Origin: Syntrophaceae bacterium
GTDB lineage: Bacteria > Desulfobacterota > Syntrophia > Syntrophales > UBA5619
Direction: 5' to 3'
NCBI GenBank assembly: GCA_003141195.1
Contig: PLLC01000024.1
Location: 26,238 to 90,237 of the forward strand
DNA length: 64,000 nt
The notes beneath the pieces are model-generated. The model had not been told where the DNA came from. It ran no database searches and worked only from the letters and a program-made list of their open reading frames with translations. This document shows positions 55,922 through 61,498 of the stretch, piece after piece; within the stretch, counting starts at the first letter, position 1, and each line of letters begins with the position of its first letter. The position numbers and the translations under genes are program-made.

Positions 55922-56397
55922 GATATCTACCTCCTTATTTATGGTTGCTGCCTTGAACATCTTGAACATCACTTTCCCCTCTTAGGTTGAGGGGTTCTCA
56001 TAGAAATTCAGATATTTCCGAACCTTTTTTGCTGTCCGGTTTTCACCAATGCGACATAACCCCAAAAAGAAAAAAATGTCAAGCGAAACCGGTCCGGACG
56101 ATGTGATGTCCGTCGTCTTCCTCGGCGCTTCAAAATTCGCGGCGCGGCTCTTCGACAATTATCTCCAAATAATCTTAATTTTGACATGATATGCGGAAAA
56201 GAAAAAAATGGTTGCGTTATGTTTGTCAAGAGATTTATAGATATTCCGCCGTATTTAAAATGGGATAGAGGGATCCGGCATTCCATGAGTGCTAAGGATA
56301 CGATTGCACAGTTAAGGTCTGGAGTCCTGAATATGCTCCCGAGTGGTGGAGATATACGGAAACTATAAAATAACTTGTTAGACGATGATAAAACAAT

Positions 56398-57186
56398 ATG
56401 GGAGAAGACATGAATAAATGCAATAAATGCGGCAAAGATGTCGATTACTCTTTTAGATATTGTCCATCGTGTGGCGGTCAGCTTTACGTTTCGCTGGACG
56501 CATCGAATGCAAAGCCAGAGATGTTCATAGATTTATTCAACTCGTTATATAATCTTTTGGCAGATAAAAATAATGATAGACGGTCTAAATACTTACCTAT
56601 TCTTAGCGAAAACATCATCGCAAGAAGATGTAAGCTTGAATACGAAGATGATTATCGAGACATGATACAAAACCTAGGTATGAAATTTGTCCCGCCCGAT
56701 GCCACCACGTATATGTATTATTTATCTCTCACAAACACGCTTGCGGGATATACTTATCGTTCTATAGAGGAGTTAATTGTAAAAAGAAAAAGTGAGATGT
56801 TATCGGAAACAGAAAAGCATCAATTAATGTCTTCATTATTCAAAGAGGCTGAGCACGATTTAAAAAATTCCTGTTATAAAGCCCTGGATCCAGTTAATTT
56901 TGTAGACAATAGAGTCCTGTTTTGTTTGTCAGTGAGATGGAAGAATGGCCAATTGAAGTATCTGCTTGCCGACGATATATATCAGCGTGAATGGTTCTTC
57001 AATATTTTGTCGCAAAACATCGCAAAGAGCATGAAATATCATGAGAAAATATTTAAGATTCTCATACCGTGTGCGGATGTGACGGCAATCGTCAATAGGA
57101 AGCGGGAAGCGATAGAGCAGAGTGCAGAACAGGACCTCTTATTCGGCTATATTGTAAAACTGTGCGAGTCCCTGAGCCCCTATTGA
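56398..57186 (+). CDS. hypothetical protein with N-terminal zinc ribbon (cassette 1, AT-rich)
   Basis: CNKCGK-x11-CPSCGG motif. ATG 56398, or 56410 (GGGAGAAG upstream). Region is about one-third G+C (20/60 in 56401-56460). Confidence 0.6.
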   Translation: MGEDMNKCNKCGKDVDYSFRYCPSCGGQLYVSLDASNAKPEMFIDLFNSLYNLLADKNNDRRSKYLPILSENIIARRCKLEYEDDYRDMIQNLGMKFVPPDATTYMYYLSLTNTLAGYTYRSIEELIVKRKSEMLSETEKHQLMSSLFKEAEHDLKNSCYKALDPVNFVDNRVLFCLSVRWKNGQLKYLLADDIYQREWFFNILSQNIAKSMKYHEKIFKILIPCADVTAIVNRKREAIEQSAEQDLLFGYIVKLCESLSPY

Positions 57187-57217
57187 AACCAAGAAAAGAC
57201 AATAAATTGAAAGGAAT

Positions 57218-57304
57218 GACTAACCAGACAATCAACCCGACCGAGAATTCCATCCGTGCAAACAGCCACACCCCGTGGCCCGGCGGGTTATCTCTACGTT
57301 AGAG
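57218..57304 (+). repeat. attC-like site 1 (87 bp) GACTAAC...GTTAGAG
   Basis: Arms 57220-57243 and 57281-57302 pair as CTAAC, AGA, A, AACCCG and CCG with bulges. The next ORF starts 13 nt after the GTTAGAG core. Confidence 0.55.
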
Positions 57305-57317
57305 GAAAAGGTACGAC

Positions 57318-58133
57318 GTGCAAGAGTCAGAATATCGAAGCTTATTGAAGATCCTCATTGACGTGGCCGACGAGAACAAGGGAACAGCGGCTGGTGAGGA
57401 CGATCGAGTCCTGGACGCTGAGGGCTTGGCCCTTAAGTTCGTTTTTCATGCCGCGTCGGCCTTGTATCTGTACCGGAGCACGTCTCTCGCAGAGCTCGGC
57501 GCGAGTTTTTTCGACCCGGGATCGGTGAACGTCGTGTGTCGCGCTGCGCTAGAGACCTTCCTTGTTTTCCATTACCTGTTCGCTGAGCCGACGACCGACG
57601 ATGATCAGAACTGTCGCTACATGGCGTGGGTGTTAGCGAGGTATCTTGAGAGGCAACAATTCCCGGTCTGGTCAGCCGAAGGTAAAGCGGTTCTGGAACG
57701 CGAGGCGCAGCTCATCGCCCCCTTGACCGACAAGCTGAAGGGTAACGCTGTCTTCGCCGCCCTCTCGGCACGGCATCAGAAGATGCTACTGAAGGGGGAG
57801 TGGAGACTTCAGTACTGGACGGAAATCGGCCGATCCGCGGGCCTTCACGACATCCACGCGAAGGCGTTTTATGCGTACCTCTGCGGCTACGCTCATGCTG
57901 GAAACTTGAGCATCCTCCAGATACGACAAGCGAATACAGCGGCCTTACAGCGGTCCCTGTGCGCAAGCTCGATGACGCTTGTCTCGATTGCGATGGCGAA
58001 CATGGTAAAGGCGTACTGCGCGTTCTTCCCAAAGTCAATGGAACGCCTGAATCAGGAACCGGCCAGCGTCAGCCTTGTCGAAGTCTGGATCGGAGTCGGC
58101 CGCTCGGCACCCGAAGACATCCTCAACGAATGA
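57318..58133 (+). CDS. hypothetical all-helical protein (cassette 2)
   Basis: 271 aa, GTG start with GAGGAAAAGG upstream. No family recognised. Confidence 0.6.
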   Translation: MQESEYRSLLKILIDVADENKGTAAGEDDRVLDAEGLALKFVFHAASALYLYRSTSLAELGASFFDPGSVNVVCRAALETFLVFHYLFAEPTTDDDQNCRYMAWVLARYLERQQFPVWSAEGKAVLEREAQLIAPLTDKLKGNAVFAALSARHQKMLLKGEWRLQYWTEIGRSAGLHDIHAKAFYAYLCGYAHAGNLSILQIRQANTAALQRSLCASSMTLVSIAMANMVKAYCAFFPKSMERLNQEPASVSLVEVWIGVGRSAPEDILNE

Positions 58134-58140
58134 CAGCGGC

Positions 58141-58199
58141 GGCTAACAAATCAATCCAGCGGATGCGGTAAACCGCCCCGCTGATTTCAGGAGTTAGGA
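58141..58199 (+). repeat. attC-like site 2 (59 bp) GGCTAAC...GTTAGGA
   Basis: Starts 8 nt after the stop codon. CTAAC/GTTAG and CAGCGG/CCGCTG pairings with an unpaired middle and a small central hairpin GCGG-taaa-CCGC. Confidence 0.55.
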
Positions 58200-58218
58200 C
58201 CCGAAAGTCCTGAAGGGT

Positions 58219-58959
58219 GTGTTGCCTGTGAACCGTTTTGCCGCATACTCTATGATGGCTATGGCTATCCTCATCGGCGGGGGGTCGCTCCTTCTTTTCG
58301 GAGTATTTCTGGTCATCGGGCCCATCACCATAGTCCGTTTTTGTGCCACGGAACACCAGGCACTCCTGTGGAACGGATTGCTGTCCGTCCTATTCTTCAT
58401 TCAGCATAGCGGAATGATACGGCAGTCGTTTCGTACCTGGCTCTCTTCCGTTATACCCAGCCATTACCACCCGGCAACCTACGCCATCGCATCCGGCATA
58501 GCACTGACAGCCGCGGTGCTCCTTTGGCAACCGTCCCAAACGGTTCTCTATCAGGCTGAGGGCCTGCTTCGCTTGCTGACACGCGCTGTCTCCGTATTTG
58601 CCATTGTGGGCTTCTCGTGGGGGGTGCGGGCCCTCGGAAACTTTGACACCTTTGGTCTAAATCCCATCAGGGCTTATCTGCGCGGCAAGCAACTCCGAGC
58701 ACCAAATGTCATCGTCCGCGGTCCATATCTCTGGGTCCGCCATCCCCTCTATTTTTTCATGCTCGTTCTCATCTGGTCATTACCCGACGTAAGTTTGGAC
58801 CGCTTGCTTTTCAATGTGCTTTGGACCCTCTGGGTTGTTCTCGGCACGTACCTTGAGGAAAAAGATCTTGTCGCTGAGTTTGGTGAAAAGTACCGTCACT
58901 ACCAAAAGACCGTCCCGATGCTTTTCCCGTGGCGGTTTCCCCGAGGCTCCAAGCTGTGA
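58219..58959 (+). CDS. ICMT/PEMT-like membrane methyltransferase family protein (cassette 3)
   Basis: 246 aa, multiple TM helices. C-terminal RGPYLWVRHPLYFF...LEEKDLVAEFGEKYRHYQKTVPMLFP matches the isoprenylcysteine carboxyl methyltransferase-like signature. Alternative start ATG 58252. Confidence 0.65.
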   Translation: MLPVNRFAAYSMMAMAILIGGGSLLLFGVFLVIGPITIVRFCATEHQALLWNGLLSVLFFIQHSGMIRQSFRTWLSSVIPSHYHPATYAIASGIALTAAVLLWQPSQTVLYQAEGLLRLLTRAVSVFAIVGFSWGVRALGNFDTFGLNPIRAYLRGKQLRAPNVIVRGPYLWVRHPLYFFMLVLIWSLPDVSLDRLLFNVLWTLWVVLGTYLEEKDLVAEFGEKYRHYQKTVPMLFPWRFPRGSKL

Positions 58960-59013
58960 AATGCATGGTGGTCGCCTCCGGGGTGTTCACGCGCCTGACA
59001 AGGCGCTCAAGAG

Positions 59014-59071
59014 GGGCAACCACGGGGCAAGTTCACCGGTTTTGTCCGAAAGACCGTGGCCGTGGTTGCTC
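59014..59071 (+). repeat. attC-like site 3 (58 bp) GGGCAAC...GTTGCTC
   Basis: Perfect 10-bp arms GCAACCACGG (59016-59025) and CCGTGGTTGC (59060-59069). The cores deviate more from consensus than at the other sites. Confidence 0.4.
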
Positions 59072-59105
59072 ACGGGTTATCGGCACAGTATGAGCAAAGG
59101 AGAAA

Positions 59106-59618
59106 ATGAAATACGTGACTGACAGCATGAGGCCGGAAGACTGGGAACAAGTCCGTTCGATCTATCTCGAAGGCATTAGCACGGGCAATTCCACATTCGA
59201 GGCCGATGCTCCCGATTGGGGCAAATGGGATTCCGCTCACCTATCTGAGCATAGGTTGGTCATCAGGGCAGGTAATAGCGTTCTGGCATGGGCCGCACTC
59301 AGCCCCGTGTCCGGTCGCTGTGTCTACTCAGGGGTGGCGGAACTCAGTCTGTATGTAGCAGCCGGGCATAGAGGCAAAGGCATAGGGTCGGCCCTTCTTG
59401 GGGCCTTGATAGACTCATCGGAAAAGGCGGGGATATGGACGCTGCAAGGCGGTATCTTCCCCGAGAACGCAGCGAGCCGCGGTATGGTTAGAAAACATGG
59501 ATTCAGGGAAATCGGAAGACGTGAAAAGATAGGCAAGATGACTCACGGCAACCTTGCCGGAACCTGGCGAGATGTTATCTTGGTGGAACGACGAAGCGCA
59601 GTCACGGGCATAGACTGA
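59106..59618 (+). CDS. GNAT acetyltransferase, phosphinothricin/methionine-sulfoximine N-acetyltransferase-like (cassette 4)
   Basis: 170 aa with AAAGGAG RBS. YLEGI.TGN.TFE...P.W..W and AELSLYV...HRGKGIG pattern of PAT-type GNATs. Confidence 0.75.
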   Translation: MKYVTDSMRPEDWEQVRSIYLEGISTGNSTFEADAPDWGKWDSAHLSEHRLVIRAGNSVLAWAALSPVSGRCVYSGVAELSLYVAAGHRGKGIGSALLGALIDSSEKAGIWTLQGGIFPENAASRGMVRKHGFREIGRREKIGKMTHGNLAGTWRDVILVERRSAVTGID

Positions 59619-59623
59619 AGATC

Positions 59624-59686
59624 TCATAACCATCGGCTGCATCTGATCTCCCGGAAAGCGGGCTCCAGGTGAGCCGTATGTTGGCC
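59624..59686 (+). repeat. attC-like site 4 (63 bp) TCATAAC...GTTGGCC
   Basis: AAC(C)AT-CGGCT pairs with AGCCG(T)AT-GTT with single-base bulges on both arms. Central hairpin CCCG-gaaa-CGGG. Confidence 0.5.
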
Positions 59687-59706
59687 GAATAGAGACAGGA
59701 GTGACT

Positions 59707-60204
59707 ATGGAGTTGGTGGAAAACAGTCCGCTCGATACAGGTAAGATCGCCTCCCTCATATCGACCAGGGATGACATGTTCCTCGTGTGGCCTATCGCTA
59801 AATGGCCATTCGACCACCGACAGTGGGCGGAGGCGCTTGATCCTGGAAAGGGAAACGTTTCTTTCATCATCCGCGAAGGAGGCAAACCAGTAGGACATGC
59901 CGCGCTTCTAAACAAGGGGGTGCCGGACACCTGTATGGTCTCATTCCTGTATCTGCTCCCCGAGTATAGGTCCCAAGGCTTGGGGCGTCGTATGGTTGCT
60001 GCATTGGAAGACTACGCCATACACACGTTTGGCGCGAAGAGGTTGCGCCTCGTCGTGCGCGACTACAATTCCCGAGCCCTCAAATGCTATCTGCATTGTG
60101 GATTCAAGGAAACCGGACGGGATGGCACTCTAATAACCATGGAGAAGGATTTGCAGGAGGGAATTGCAGGAGGCCAACCAGCGGGTGCAGGCGATGCTTT
60201 ATAG
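59707..60204 (+). CDS. GNAT-family N-acetyltransferase (cassette 5)
   Basis: ATG 59707 with AGGAG 6 nt upstream (track GTG 59701). Acetyl-CoA motif LPEYRSQGLGRRMV. Confidence 0.8.
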   Translation: MELVENSPLDTGKIASLISTRDDMFLVWPIAKWPFDHRQWAEALDPGKGNVSFIIREGGKPVGHAALLNKGVPDTCMVSFLYLLPEYRSQGLGRRMVAALEDYAIHTFGAKRLRLVVRDYNSRALKCYLHCGFKETGRDGTLITMEKDLQEGIAGGQPAGAGDAL

Positions 60205-60228
60205 TGCGCCTGACCTGCGTCGTTAGAT
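60172..60228 (+). repeat. attC-like site 5 (57 bp) GGCCAAC...GTTAGAT, overlapping the 3' end of the GNAT gene
   Basis: Consensus R' core GTTAGAT at 60222-60228. Internal hairpin CAGGCG (60188-60193)/CGCCTG (60207-60212). Confidence 0.5.
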
Positions 60229-60263
60229 GAACTTGATTAGCCATTTAAAACGAAGGAGGCGTT

Positions 60264-60500
60264 ATGAAAATTTTTATTGAATATTGTGTTGCTTGAAACT
60301 TTCTTCCTCAAGCTTCCCGGGTGGAAGAAGAATTGAAGACAAATTATCCTGATTCAAATATTAAATTGATCGAAGGCGGAGGCGGTATTTTCGATGTAAA
60401 GTGTAACGGCAAGTTGATTTACTCTAAACAGAATATTGAAGGACAGCGATTTCCCAATGAGGGAGAAATCACCAGGTTGATCCAACAAGAGATGGGCTGA
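60264..60500 (+). CDS. SelW/Rdx-family selenoprotein (78 aa) with in-frame UGA-Sec at codon 11 (cassette 6)
   Basis: GAAGGAGG RBS 4 nt upstream of ATG 60264. Translation MKIFIEYCVA-U-NFLPQASRVEEELKTNYPDSNIKLIEGGGGIFDVKCNGKLIYSKQNIEGQRFPNEGEITRLIQQEMG*. CxxU redox motif and G..G.F.V...G.L..SK....RFP pattern of the Rdx family. Hairpin 4 nt after the UGA. Missed by the ORF track because of the TGA at 60294-60296. Confidence 0.7.
60301..60329 (+). promoter_or_regulatory. candidate bacterial SECIS hairpin
   Basis: TTCTTCC (60301-60307) pairs with GGAAGAA (60323-60329). The 15-nt loop contains GGG. Begins 4 nt downstream of the in-frame UGA. Confidence 0.5.
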
Positions 60501-60598
60501 CTTTTAACGGAAATAGGCAAAAGGGTCGCCTTTAACATTTGAATTTTGGTTGAAACAAATGGGGGTAATTATAGTAAACTCTATAATGACAATGAGTT

Positions 60599-60661
60599 GC
60601 CTAACTATGCCATGCATCGAATCGGCCATAAAGCGGCCTCTCGCTGAGCTTTGTGTTAGCC
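60599..60661 (+). repeat. attC-like site 6 (63 bp) GCCTAAC...GTTAGCC
   Basis: Consensus R'' core GCCTAAC. Internal pairing is weaker (GGCC/GGCC and CGA segments). The next ORF starts 22 nt after the core. Confidence 0.4.
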
Positions 60662-60683
60662 GTGTAGGTCGGAGAGCAGAGGA

Positions 60684-61334
60684 ATGAGGGGGCAGTCCGA
60701 GAAGCCGACAACCATCATCGCAGTTCGCCACGGTGAGACCGAATGGAACCGTGTCGGTCGCCAACAAGGTCATCTCGACAGTCCGCTCACACCGCTCGGC
60801 AAGCAGCAAGCTCTGTCGATGGCCGACGCACTATCCAGCAGGTCTGTGCAGTTGCTCTACTCCAGCGACCTCGGCAGAGCTCAGGAAACCGCCACGATTA
60901 TTGCGGCGCGGCTGAACCTGCAGGTTCGCACGGATGCGCGCCTGCGTGAACGAAATCTGGGGATACTGGAAGGCCAGACAATGTCTCAGTTTCGCGAGAA
61001 GCATCCGCCGGAAGCCGCCTCGCTTGCTTCGGGGGACCCGGATTTCGCGTTGCCGTGCGGAGAGAGTGCACGCCAGAGGTTTGTGAGGAATGTCGAATGT
61101 GTGGAGGAAATCGCACGCAAGCATGCTGGCAATACGGTCTTGGTTGTGGCACATGGTGGCGTACTAAACAGCTTCTTCCACAAGGCGGTGCAACTGCCGC
61201 TGGAAACCCGACGATCTTTTTCGCTATTCAACGCGGCAGTGAATGTGTTCACGGTTGCGGATTCGGGTTGGCGTCTGGAGACGTGGGGCGATGTCTCGCA
61301 TCTTCGAACAATCCCAACGCTTGATGACGCATAG
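60684..61334 (+). CDS. histidine phosphatase (phosphoglycerate mutase-like) family protein (cassette 7 or first post-array gene)
   Basis: 216 aa. RHGETEWN catalytic motif and a distal VVAHGG motif. Confidence 0.85.
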   Translation: MRGQSEKPTTIIAVRHGETEWNRVGRQQGHLDSPLTPLGKQQALSMADALSSRSVQLLYSSDLGRAQETATIIAARLNLQVRTDARLRERNLGILEGQTMSQFREKHPPEAASLASGDPDFALPCGESARQRFVRNVECVEEIARKHAGNTVLVVAHGGVLNSFFHKAVQLPLETRRSFSLFNAAVNVFTVADSGWRLETWGDVSHLRTIPTLDDA

Positions 61335-61417
61335 TCGGCAGAACGTTCACTTGTGCGGAACAGGGCTAACATGCGGGTGGAGCACGACAAAACGGGGGCA
61401 AAGTCGGTCAAAACCGT

Positions 61418-61460
61418 TTGACACCCCCCGGGGCATCCCTTATACTGCGGATCACGTGAT
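61418..61460 (+). promoter_or_regulatory. sigma70-like promoter TTGACA-N17-TATACT followed by perfect 10-bp palindrome ATCACGTGAT
   Basis: -35 at 61418-61423, -10 at 61441-61446, palindrome at 61451-61460 around the expected transcription start. NUDIX ATG at 61499. Confidence 0.5.
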
Positions 61461-61498
61461 GGGTCCCATCCGGGGGGTGGTCAGGAAATGAGCAACGA

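What the first reader, a model, noticed from the sequence alone, without database searches (positions are those of the whole stretch)
56371..60661. Integron-like gene-cassette array with six attC-like sites and no integrase in view (CALIN-type)
Seven consecutive plus-strand ORFs (56398-61334) encode a zinc-ribbon protein, a helical unknown, an ICMT-like methyltransferase, two GNATs, a SelW-like selenoprotein and a histidine phosphatase. Each is preceded 13-36 nt upstream by a GTTRRRY-like heptamer. The first six are each followed by a 57-87 bp imperfect inverted repeat that opens with an RYYYAAC-like heptamer. The sites are 57218-57304 GACTAAC...GTTAGAG; 58141-58199 GGCTAAC...GTTAGGA; 59014-59071 GGGCAAC...GTTGCTC; 59624-59686 TCATAAC...GTTGGCC; 60172-60228 GGCCAAC...GTTAGAT; and 60599-60661 GCCTAAC...GTTAGCC. 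An orphan GTTAGAC at 56377-56383, preceded by TAAC, sits ahead of the first ORF. The arms pair with bulged bases. For example, 57220-57243 reads CTAAC-c-AGA-c-A-atc-AACCCG-a-CCG, against the reverse complement of 57281-57302, CTAAC-gt-AGA-g-A-t-AACCCG-CCG. That is attC-like rather than terminator-like. Composition is mosaic: 56401-56460 has 20/60 G+C and the SelW cassette is also AT-rich, while adjacent cassettes and flanks are GC-rich. The cargo is typical of chromosomal integron cassettes. No intI or other recombinase lies on either flank.
Basis: partly seen in the sequence, partly recalled or inferred. Interest (0 to 1): 0.8.

Follow-up and report, generated by a model that had tools for sequence, protein, structure and literature searches.

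The report
Integron cassette array without its integrase
This is a genuine chromosomal integron gene-cassette array in a Syntrophales-like wetland bacterium: it keeps its insertion site but has lost its integrase gene, which is a known kind of element, and one cassette encodes a selenoprotein.

Summary
The window carries six cassettes (56378-60655) on the + strand.

- **attC sites.** E-values run from 2.8e-8 to 1e-3, and nothing else in 64 kb scores below E = 0.39. The same model finds 12 of 12 attC sites in three clinical class 1 integrons.
- **Site 3.** The sixth site (59014-59071) is not recognised. Comparison with relatives moves the cassette 3/4 junction to 59076|59077 and shows a rearranged attC.
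- **Orphan GTTAGAC.** It is the crossover of an attI-like site. A 212-nt element (56169-56380) is conserved in about 30 other contigs. Homology always stops at G|TT, and at least 18 different sequences follow it.
- **Integrase.** Relatives keep integron-integrase pseudogene remnants of 316 nt or 63 nt between the ABC binding-protein gene and this element. The window has none, so the integrase was lost in place.
- **Cassette shuffling.** Cassettes 3, 4 and 6 occur in other orders elsewhere.
- **Cassette 6.** It encodes a SelW-like selenoprotein with a conserved UGA and hairpin.

Verdict: a CALIN produced by in-situ loss of intI, a new member of a known kind. Interest is moderate.

The parts
56169..56383 (+). 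Conserved attI-like platform element. It ends in the crossover heptamer GTTAGAC (56377-56383), with recombination between G56377 and T56378.
   Evidence: The element is 83-94% identical in L009, L010, L014 and about 25 metagenome contigs. Homology ends at w56375-56388, mostly at w56379-56380. At least 18 different sequences follow ...AATAACTTG|TT.
56181..56209 (+). Candidate cassette promoter (Pc-like): TTGACA, 17 nt, AAAAAT, pointing into the array.
   Evidence: The consensus scan scores it 10 of 12. It lies in the most conserved part of the platform, the first 70 nt, which is kept even in L007, L066, L070 and L076. Function is inferred only.
56378..57298 (+). Cassette 1 (39% G+C): ORF 56398-57186, an N-terminal zinc ribbon plus an unknown domain.
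   Evidence: Its 5' end, (G)TTAGAC, matches the reverse complement of its own R'' (GACTAAC) at 6 of 7 positions.
57218..57304 (+). attC of cassette 1 (87 nt).
   Evidence: R2 gives 36.9 bits, E = 2.1e-7, on the bottom strand. The geometry is canonical. The bottom strand folds with z = -2.7.
57299..58193 (+). Cassette 2: ORF 57318-58133, weakly DUF5677-like.
58141..58199 (+). attC of cassette 2 (59 nt). Its extrahelical base is G on the bottom strand.
   Evidence: R2 gives 35.1 bits, E = 6.4e-7. The scanner scores it 9 of 9.
58194..59076 (+). Cassette 3: ORF 58219-58959, a membrane methyltransferase (MddA/ICMT-like).
   Evidence: NCBIfam NF045656 matches at E = 1e-37, below the family cut-off. 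The same cassette starts at the same G|TT in L009, L014, L054, L055, L058, L061, L073 and L075 behind different upstream sequences.
58993..59082 (+). Rearranged attC of cassette 3. The 5' half (R'' GCCTGAC at 58993-58999) is conserved with other copies up to 59017. The 3' half is unrelated, and R' is GTTATCG (59076-59082).
   Evidence: Homology to the cassette 3 attC of L014, L054, L055 and L075 stops at w59017. Neither model hits it. Folding shows only the inner 10-bp stem.
59077..59680 (+). Cassette 4: ORF 59106-59618, a GNAT acetyltransferase of the ArsN1/PAT type.
   Evidence: NCBIfam NF040503 matches at E = 2e-36, below the family cut-off. In L075 the same cassette sits after another attC and starts G|TTATGA, which is the exact reverse complement of its own R'' TCATAAC. 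The window has an 11-nt insertion after GTTAT.
59624..59686 (+). attC of cassette 4 (63 nt).
   Evidence: R2 gives 40.2 bits, E = 2.8e-8. R1 gives E = 5.4e-12.
59681..60222 (+). Cassette 5: ORF 59701-60204, a second GNAT.
   Evidence: Its 5' end GTTGGCC equals the reverse complement of its own R'' GGCCAAC at 7 of 7 positions.
60172..60228 (+). attC of cassette 5 (57 nt). It overlaps the last 33 nt of the ORF.
   Evidence: R2 gives 23.3 bits, E = 1e-3. The scanner scores it 9 of 9.
60223..60655 (+). Cassette 6 (39% G+C): a SelW/Rdx-like selenoprotein gene at 60264-60500, with in-frame UGA at 60294-60296 (CVAU motif) and hairpin 60313-60327.
   Evidence: Pfam Rdx matches at E = 6e-16. NCBIfam NF041051 scores 97.6 bits against a cut-off of 88. 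The UGA and the hairpin CTTCC-CGGGT-GGAAG are conserved in 10 homologues, which sit behind three different attC sites.
60599..60661 (+). attC of cassette 6 (63 nt), the last recognisable site. Its L box carries several mismatches.
   Evidence: R2 gives 37.6 bits, E = 1.4e-7. R1 gives E = 1.6e-11.
60684..61334 (+). Histidine phosphatase gene just after the last attC. It may be a terminal cassette without an attC or part of the backbone; this is unresolved.
   Evidence: Pfam His_Phos_1 matches at E = 5e-59. No attC-model hit lies between 61335 and 61498. Copies 97% identical follow cassette 6 in L054-L057 but have other right flanks.

Best explanation
The region is the cassette array of a chromosomal integron whose integrase gene has been deleted in place. 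In the terms of Cury et al. 2016 it is a CALIN, but one that still has its attI-like site and a likely cassette promoter.

**Layout.** A 212-nt conserved platform (56169-56380) ends in the crossover G|TTAGAC. Six promoterless cassettes follow. Five end in a canonical attC, and the attC of cassette 3 is rearranged.

**Mechanism (established integron biology; inferred here).** The bottom strand of each attC folds into a hairpin with an R box, an unpaired spacer, an L box with an extrahelical base, and a variable loop. An integron integrase cuts it at AA|C. It then recombines it with attI to insert a cassette, or with another attC to excise one.

**Shown here.**
- The sites fit an attC model.
- Homology between genomes breaks exactly at the predicted crossovers.
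- Cassettes 3, 4 and 6 occur in other orders and positions in other genomes.
- At least 18 different sequences follow the same attI junction.
- Integron-integrase pseudogene remnants lie at this exact position in sister genomes.

**Inferred.** The remnant already looks dead in all copies and has the same junction with the platform. Cassette turnover after that point therefore needed an integrase supplied from elsewhere in the cell. Expression of the cassettes from the platform promoter is also inferred.
For: **attC model.** R2 was built from 21 sites of other genomes, with no window sequence and no orthologues of window sites.

**Positive control.** R2 finds all 12 attC sites after the cassette genes of three class 1 integrons, at 23-39 bits. 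The next best hit there has E = 0.17.

**Covariation.** In alignment A8, 91% of cells pair, against 20-43% when partners are slid by 1-3 columns. Eight of 14 pairs carry compensatory changes.

**attI crossover.** Homology of L009, L010 and L014 with the window stops at w56379/56380. About 25 further contigs stop at the same place, and at least 18 different sequences follow it.

**Cassette shuffling.**
- L014, L054, L055, L061, L073 and L075 have cassette 3 followed directly by cassette 6.
- L075 has cassette 4 after cassette 6.
- Cassette 3 is the first cassette in L058, L061 and L073; in L075 an extra ~150 nt lies between the platform and cassette 3.

**Cassettes carry their own R' tail.** The match to the cassette's own R'' is 7 of 7 for cassette 5, for cassette 4 in L075, for the first cassette of L014 and for the first cassette of L045.

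**intI remnants.**
- L007 has 316 nt between the binding-protein intergenic region and the platform. Its only NCBIfam match is TIGR02249, integron integrase.
- Its homologues P0003, P0018, P0023 and P0027 match TIGR02249 at E = 1e-54 to 1e-62.
- L014 keeps 63 nt of the remnant and the window keeps none.

**A second integron in the clade.** Relative L045 carries another array, with toxin-antitoxin cassettes, next to another intI pseudogene.
Against: - No integrase is available to show that these sites recombine.
- The rest of the genome (MAG GCA_003141375.1) could not be searched for intI.
- Site 3 does not fit the model, so cassettes 3 and 4 may now be fused and immobile.
- The array is identical in the six contigs shown and compared (L001-L006), out of 24 contigs carrying the identical DLH protein in different samples. 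There is therefore no sign of ongoing turnover in this population.
- The promoter is only a consensus match.
- No full-length integrase of either remnant type turned up in two protein searches. This weakens the idea of a helper integrase acting in trans, but does not exclude it.
Confidence: 0.92

Rival explanations
1. It is part of a complete, working integron whose integrase gene lies elsewhere in the same genome. Either a rearrangement split the integron, or a second integron supplies the enzyme. On this reading the array is only apparently orphaned.
For: Cury et al. 2016 report that half of all CALINs are in genomes that encode IntI elsewhere. Many different first cassettes sit at the same attI junction despite a shared dead remnant, which argues that some integrase acted on the platform.
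Against: The former position of intI is marked by remnants directly left of the platform in L007, L014 and many metagenome contigs. The locus was therefore not split from its integrase; the integrase decayed in place. Whether another intI exists in the genome is untested. No full-length relative of either remnant type was found.
Confidence: 0.35
2. The cassettes were inserted at a secondary, non-attI site by an integrase encoded elsewhere, so there was never an integron at this locus.
For: Cury et al. 2016 list this route as a possible origin of CALINs, and a preprint reports cassette insertion outside att sites (listed).
Against: The left boundary is a 212-nt element conserved in about 30 contigs, with one fixed crossover. 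Integrase pseudogene remnants lie immediately beside it. That is the layout of an integron platform, not of a random secondary site.
Confidence: 0.03
3. It is an ordinary vertically inherited operon whose intergenic hairpins are terminators or REP-like repeats.
For: All ORFs are on one strand with short gaps. The array is identical in the six contigs of this population that were compared.
Against: - The hairpins have no T-runs. Only one terminator-like match overlaps a site, and only weakly.
- The AAC...GTT ends and the position of the bulged base are fixed.
- The attC model hits are specific.
- None of 45 related loci keeps this gene order.
- G+C swings from 39% to 57% between neighbouring cassettes.
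Confidence: 0.02

Closest known systems
CALIN (cluster of attC sites lacking an integron integrase; Cury et al. 2016, PMC4889954)
   Same: There are at least two attC sites less than 4 kb apart on one strand, no intI nearby, about five attC sites, and mostly unknown, non-resistance cargo.
   Different: Most CALINs (95%) have no recognisable intI pseudogene nearby, and their attI is unknown. Here the attI-like platform is preserved and defined by comparison. Sister genomes document the stepwise loss of intI at the same spot: 316 nt, then 63 nt, then 0 nt.
Sedentary chromosomal integrons with decayed integrases, as described for Xanthomonas (my own knowledge; a 2025 preprint on Xanthomonas integrons appears but I did not read it)
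   Same: The integron sits at a fixed chromosomal position beside a conserved housekeeping operon. intI is pseudogenised in many lineages, and cassette content varies between relatives.
   Different: The host is a different phylum: anaerobic Syntrophales/Smithella-like Desulfobacterota from wetlands and sediments. The attC sites are heterogeneous (57-87 nt). The same platform also appears beside at least four other left-hand neighbours.
Class 1 mobile integron cassette arrays (for example pJB12, with the array aac(6')-Il, blaVIM-2, aac(3)-Ia, aac(6')-Ib4)
   Same: The attC architecture is the same, as is the orientation relative to the genes. One model scores both sets at 23-40 bits. The crossover is at G|TT and cassettes carry their own R' tail.
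   Different: There is no intI, no Tn402 or 3'-CS context and no resistance genes. The array is chromosomal.

Membership tests
Integron attC site | Imperfect inverted repeat of about 50-150 nt, bounded by R'' (RYYYAAC) and R' (GTTRRRY) | tested here: met
   All six sites are 57-87 nt with AAC...GTT ends. Agreement with the outer heptamer positions is loose. That is expected, because the R' tail belongs to the next cassette.
Integron attC site | Folded bottom strand with an R box, an unpaired spacer and an L box carrying an extrahelical base on the R''/L'' arm, plus a variable terminal loop | tested here: met
   Sites 1, 2, 4 and 5 fit exactly and site 6 fits with mismatches. Site 3 does not fit. 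In R2 the bottom strand scores 23-40 bits, against at most 13 bits for the top strand.
Integron attC site | Significant match to an attC covariance model | tested here: met
   IntegronFinder's own model was not available. The substitute, R2, was built from other genomes. It was validated on 12 of 12 class 1 attC sites and hits 5 of 6 window sites.
Integron attC site | Recombined by an integron integrase | not testable with these tools
   The evidence is indirect only: homology breaks at G|TT and cassettes are reordered between genomes.
CALIN (Cury et al. 2016) | [quoted passage not shown] | tested here: met
   Five model-supported sites lie 433-1487 nt apart, all in one orientation.
CALIN (Cury et al. 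2016) | No intI nearby | tested here: met
   tblastn with IntI1 and with the remnant peptides finds nothing in the 64-kb window. The 9 kb beyond its right end has no integrase.
Complete integron | An intact intI gene beside attI, transcribed divergently from the cassettes | tested here: not met
   The ABC binding-protein gene lies 404 nt left of the crossover. intI is absent from the window and survives only as remnants in relatives.
Complete integron | An attI site at the head of the array where cassettes are inserted | tested here: met
   A conserved platform has one fixed crossover, followed by at least 18 different sequences. Binding by an integrase was not tested.
Complete integron | A Pc promoter upstream of the first cassette | tested here: inconclusive
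   TTGACA-17-AAAAAT at 56181-56209 is a consensus match in a conserved stretch. There are no expression data.
SelW/SelT/SelH (Rdx) selenoprotein | Rdx fold family with a CxxU redox motif encoded by an in-frame UGA | tested here: met
   Pfam Rdx matches at E = 6e-16. NCBIfam NF041051 scores above its cut-off. CVAU with UGA at 60294-60296 is conserved in 10 homologues.
SelW/SelT/SelH (Rdx) selenoprotein | A bacterial SECIS hairpin just downstream of the UGA | tested here: inconclusive
   The hairpin CTTCC-CGGGT-GGAAG lies 16 nt after the UGA and is invariant in 10 homologues. Its folding energy is no better than that of shuffles, and no Rfam family matched.
SelW/SelT/SelH (Rdx) selenoprotein | The host encodes selA, selB, selC and selD | not testable with these tools
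   The rest of the genome is not available. The window has no tRNA genes.

The most novel reading that the evidence does not exclude
The integrase-less platform (dead intI stub, attI and promoter) may not be a decaying relic. It may be a long-lived, lineage-wide cassette acquisition site that integrases encoded elsewhere keep servicing in trans.

Three findings support this. All copies share the same dead remnant junction. The copies have diverged by 6-17% in sequence. They carry at least 18 different first cassettes joined precisely at G|TT, and they sit beside at least five different left-hand neighbours.

One of the cassettes it circulates is a complete selenoprotein gene with UGA and SECIS. 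As far as my literature searches show, this would be the first recoded (selenocysteine) gene described as an integron cassette.
Probability: 0.4. Interest if true: 0.55.

Novelty: new member of a known kind. Interest (0 to 1): 0.38.

Why it matters
CALINs are common, but their origin is mostly unknown. Cury et al. 2016 found intI pseudogenes near only 15 of 279.

This locus gives a clean, stepwise example of one origin: loss of the integrase in place. It also has a comparatively defined attI, which is rarely known outside the clinical integron classes.

It extends well-documented integron platforms to anaerobic syntrophic Desulfobacterota from thawing permafrost and sediments. The published Stordalen survey kept only complete integrons.

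The selenoprotein cassette shows that integrons can move genes that work only in hosts with selenocysteine machinery.

None of this changes how integrons are understood to work.

Tried and rejected
- **Rfam.** A gathering-threshold search over the whole window found nothing. No attC or SECIS family matched.
- **MAFFT on the attC sites.** Alignments A1 and A3 put the 3' arms out of register, so they could not seed a model. I seeded R1 with four same-length sites from relatives and let Infernal realign further hits.
- **First model too narrow.** R1 missed site 5. The broader R2 found it.
- **Seventh attC.** I looked between the histidine phosphatase stop codon and the NUDIX gene (61335-61498). 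Folding gave z of about 0 and the model gave no hit.
None of 45 loci with the orthologous ABC operon has the histidine phosphatase, NUDIX or DLH genes nearby, so an 'empty site' of that form does not exist.
- **attI comparison.** I compared the window platform with the attI region of the second integron in L045 and found no similarity.
- **Intact integrases of the lineage.** Two protein searches returned only fragments of 50-180 aa. The contexts of two of them showed a frameshifted gene and a stub followed by a PIF1 helicase.
- **Exact-protein look-up of cassette 5.** It failed because public gene calls use another start codon.
- **A 90% identical histidine phosphatase.** The contig that carries it next to an ABC operon had no DNA available.

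Full report
**What is there.** Between 56398 and 61334 lie seven + strand ORFs.

| ORF | Coordinates | Product | Evidence |
|---|---|---|---|
| 1 | 56398-57186 | Zinc-ribbon protein | Pfam, |
| 2 | 57318-58133 | Weakly DUF5677-like | Pfam, |
| 3 | 58219-58959 | Membrane methyltransferase, MddA/ICMT-like | NCBIfam E = 1e-37, below cut-off; |
| 4 | 59106-59618 | GNAT, ArsN1/PAT type | NCBIfam E = 2e-36, below cut-off; |
| 5 | 59701-60204 | GNAT | |
| 6 | 60264-60500 | SelW/Rdx-like protein with an in-frame UGA | NCBIfam NF041051 above cut-off; |
| 7 | 60684-61334 | Histidine phosphatase | Pfam E = 5e-59; |

Cassettes 1 and 6 are 39% G+C, against 55-57% for the others. The window comes from a Syntrophales/Syntrophaceae-like MAG from Stordalen Mire (GCA_003141375.1). 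Twenty-four contigs from different samples carry the identical DLH protein, and the six shown and compared have the identical array.

**Are the repeats attC sites?** Sites 1, 2, 4 and 5 share one exact layout. It runs R'' (7 nt, ending AAC), a 5-nt spacer, 3 bp, one extrahelical base on the R''/L'' arm, 6 bp, a variable loop, 6 bp, 3 bp, a 5-6 nt spacer and R' (GTTNNNN). To my knowledge this is the textbook attC layout, as in attC-aadA7. A strict scanner for it finds four hits in the window on both strands, all in the array on the + strand. Twenty shuffles gave five hits in total.

IntegronFinder's model was not available, so I built my own from sequences outside the window.
- R1 came from four sites in arrays of relatives L009, L014 and L045.
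- R2 came from 21 sites found by R1 in relatives and metagenome contigs.
- None of those 21 sites is an orthologue of a window site.
- The R2 alignment shows compensatory changes in 8 of 14 pairs. It has 91% paired cells, against 20-43% when partners are slid, although the alignment was fitted to the structure.

R2 hits the window as follows, all on the bottom strand:

| Site | Coordinates | E-value |
|---|---|---|
| 4 | 59624-59686 | 2.8e-8 |
| 6 | 60599-60661 | 1.4e-7 |
| 1 | 57218-57304 | 2.1e-7 |
| 2 | 58141-58199 | 6.4e-7 |
| 5 | 60172-60228 | 1e-3 |

The next best hit in 64 kb has E = 0.39.

As a positive control I ran R2 on three class 1 integrons from plasmids. It found an attC after each of the 12 cassette genes. 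Scores were 23-39 bits, the strand was as expected, and the next best hit had E = 0.17. The window sites score 23-40 bits, so they behave like experimentally known attC sites. E-values from these quickly calibrated models are rough.

**Site 3.** The hairpin at 59014-59071 is real, with a 10-bp perfect stem. Neither model recognises it.

Other copies of cassette 3 (L014, L054, L055, L075) have an attC whose R'' sits where the window has GCCTGAC (58993-58999). Homology with the window runs through the 5' half of that site and stops at 59017.

Cassette 4 occurs in L075 behind a different attC and starts G|TTATGA. That is the exact reverse complement of its own R'' (TCATAAC). The window reads GTTAT-cggcacagtat-GA at 59076.

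The real cassette 3/4 junction is therefore 59076|59077. The attC of cassette 3 (58993-59082) is a rearranged site with a foreign 3' half, and it is probably inactive.

**The left end is an attI-like site.** Homology between the window and L009, L010 and L014 runs from the ABC binding-protein gene through the intergenic region. It stops at w56379/56380, inside the 'orphan' GTTAGAC.

A pattern from the conserved 212-nt stretch (56169-56380) retrieved 27 more metagenome contigs. In nearly all that carry the full element, homology ends at w56375-56388. The sequence ...AATAACTTG|TT is followed by at least 18 different continuations. This is the signature of an attI: a fixed left half, a fixed crossover and variable cassettes. 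The stretch contains a promoter-like TTGACA-17-AAAAAT pointing into the array. Its function is inferred.

**Cassettes move.**
- Cassette 3 is followed directly by cassette 6 in L014, L054, L055, L061, L073 and L075.
- Cassette 3 is the first cassette in L058, L061 and L073. In L075 an extra ~150 nt lies between the platform and cassette 3.
- Cassette 4 lies after cassette 6 in L075.
- Cassette 6 sits behind three different attC sites.

Each time, homology starts at the G|TT of the preceding site. Several cassettes begin with the exact complement of their own R'', as expected if they once circularised. The match is 7 of 7 for cassette 5, for cassette 4 in L075, and for the first cassettes of L014 and L045.

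**Where the integrase went.** The window has no integrase. tblastn with IntI1 gives a best E of 5, and that query proved 100% identical to annotated IntI1.

In L007, the closest relative by the binding protein (97% identity), 316 nt lie between the binding-protein intergenic region and the platform. They encode ...SVYGSGQSLTICMGRIKSG...FFPAKQLTHEIMTGGYRRYHLHETNVQKAIKQA... on the strand opposite to the cassettes.
- The only NCBIfam match of this peptide is TIGR02249, integron integrase (E = 0.0012).
- Its database homologues match that family at E = 1e-54 to 1e-62.
- L014 keeps 63 nt of it. The window, L009 and L010 keep none.
- The window's deletion lies between two short similar motifs, ATCTCC and ATCTTCC, read from the sequences.

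Many metagenome copies keep a stub of 31 to 103 residues with the same junction to the platform. The stub reads GSGQS where IntI1 reads GTGMR. As I recall, this lines up with the box I region, so the catalytic arginine would be replaced by glutamine. That alignment is mine by eye.

The integrase was therefore already dead in the common ancestor of these platforms, and it was then trimmed to different extents.

**Mechanism and what remains inferred.** The locus is a CALIN in the sense of Cury et al. 2016. It arose by their route (iii), loss of intI, but with attI retained.

The diversity of first cassettes behind a shared dead stub implies recombination by an integrase supplied in trans.

Two points count against it. 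Two searches found only fragments of the relevant integrase types. The array does not vary within this population.

**Right end.** No attC follows the histidine phosphatase gene.

Copies 97% identical follow cassette 6 in L054-L057. They diverge from the window 15 nt before the stop codon, because a Phd/RelE-type toxin-antitoxin module is inserted there. NUDIX has its own strong promoter-like site at 61418-61446.

I treat 60661 as the last certain element of the array. The status of the phosphatase is open.

**Selenoprotein cassette.** Cassette 6 encodes MKIFIEYCVA-U-NFLPQ..., with UGA at 60294-60296. The UGA and the hairpin CTTCC-CGGGT-GGAAG (60313-60327) are unchanged in 10 homologues, while the two residues inside the CxxU motif vary.

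Its folding energy is unremarkable. The SECIS assignment therefore rests on conservation and position.

My full-text searches found no report of a selenoprotein gene as an integron cassette. These searches cover open-access papers only.

**Verdict.** It is a new member of a known kind. It is of moderate interest for two reasons: the documented in-place loss of the integrase with a retained, comparatively defined attI, and the selenoprotein cassette.

Noticed in passing
window 60264-60500 (UGA 60294-60296; hairpin 60313-60327); homologues in L014, L054, L055, L061, L065, L071, L073, L075: A SelW/Rdx-like selenoprotein gene with a CxxU motif and a conserved downstream hairpin travels as an integron cassette. 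It is found behind three different attC sites. I found no report of selenoprotein cassettes in the searchable literature.
   Followed up: partly
L045 15051-19988 (relative MAG, contig CAWFOM010000004): A second integron lies on the other side of the same ABC operon. Its array carries HicAB-, VapBC- and other toxin-antitoxin-type cassettes and sits next to an intI pseudogene made of an 89-aa N-terminal piece and a 52-aa C-terminal piece. Its attI region is unrelated to the window's platform.
   Followed up: partly
P0001-P0031 and P0152-P0182; loci L085, L092-L094: Both integrase types linked to these arrays appear in public data only as fragments: C-terminal halves of 100-180 aa, or N-terminal pieces of 50-154 aa. 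One case is a frameshifted gene and another is a stub followed by a PIF1 helicase. Integrase decay seems widespread in this clade, or gene calling systematically splits these genes.
   Followed up: partly
L054 about 1710-1790, L056, L057, L058 about 925-1700: A Phd/YefM-RelE/ParE toxin-antitoxin module has its own promoter/operator (TTGACAATCGGTCCGAATTAAATATTATACATGGACCGGAGG). It is inserted into the 3' end of the histidine phosphatase gene in L054-L057 and into the 3' end of cassette 3 in L058. Neither insertion is at an attC site, so it moves by another mechanism.
   Followed up: no
L059, L077, L079, L083 / L060, L064, L074 / L062, L067 / L072: The same platform occurs beside at least four other left-hand neighbours: a DinG-like helicase, an S1-like protein, an HTH protein plus a binding protein, and a rubrerythrin-like gene next to cytochrome bd-like genes (assignments by eye, not checked against any family library). 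Some of these copies have a different 35-nt left junction (...GATAAGCCCAACGGCCTTCTCCATCTACCTT). I could not tell whether the platform itself moves or the genomes are rearranged.
   Followed up: partly
L007 9412-9488, L066, L070, L076: Some relatives keep the 103-residue integrase stub and only the first 70 nt of the platform, fused to a truncated sugar-binding-protein gene. The attI and the whole array have been deleted there.
   Followed up: partly
window 59081-59091: An 11-nt insertion (CGGCACAGTAT) repeats the preceding GTAT. It lies right after the R' GTTAT at the start of cassette 4, relative to the copy in L075.
   Followed up: no
L007, L008, L010, L011, L012, L023, L024, L047 (record titles): Contigs whose ABC operon is 88-97% identical to that of the Syntrophaceae-labelled MAGs are labelled NC10/Methylomirabilota or Aminicenantes. 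This suggests mis-binning or mislabelling in public MAG records.
   Followed up: no
window 61418-61446: A near-consensus promoter-like site (TTGACA-17-TATACT, 11 of 12) lies upstream of the NUDIX gene. It is flanked by a 10-bp perfect inverted repeat, CACCCCCCGG/CCGGGGGGTG (61422-61431 and 61470-61479).
   Followed up: no
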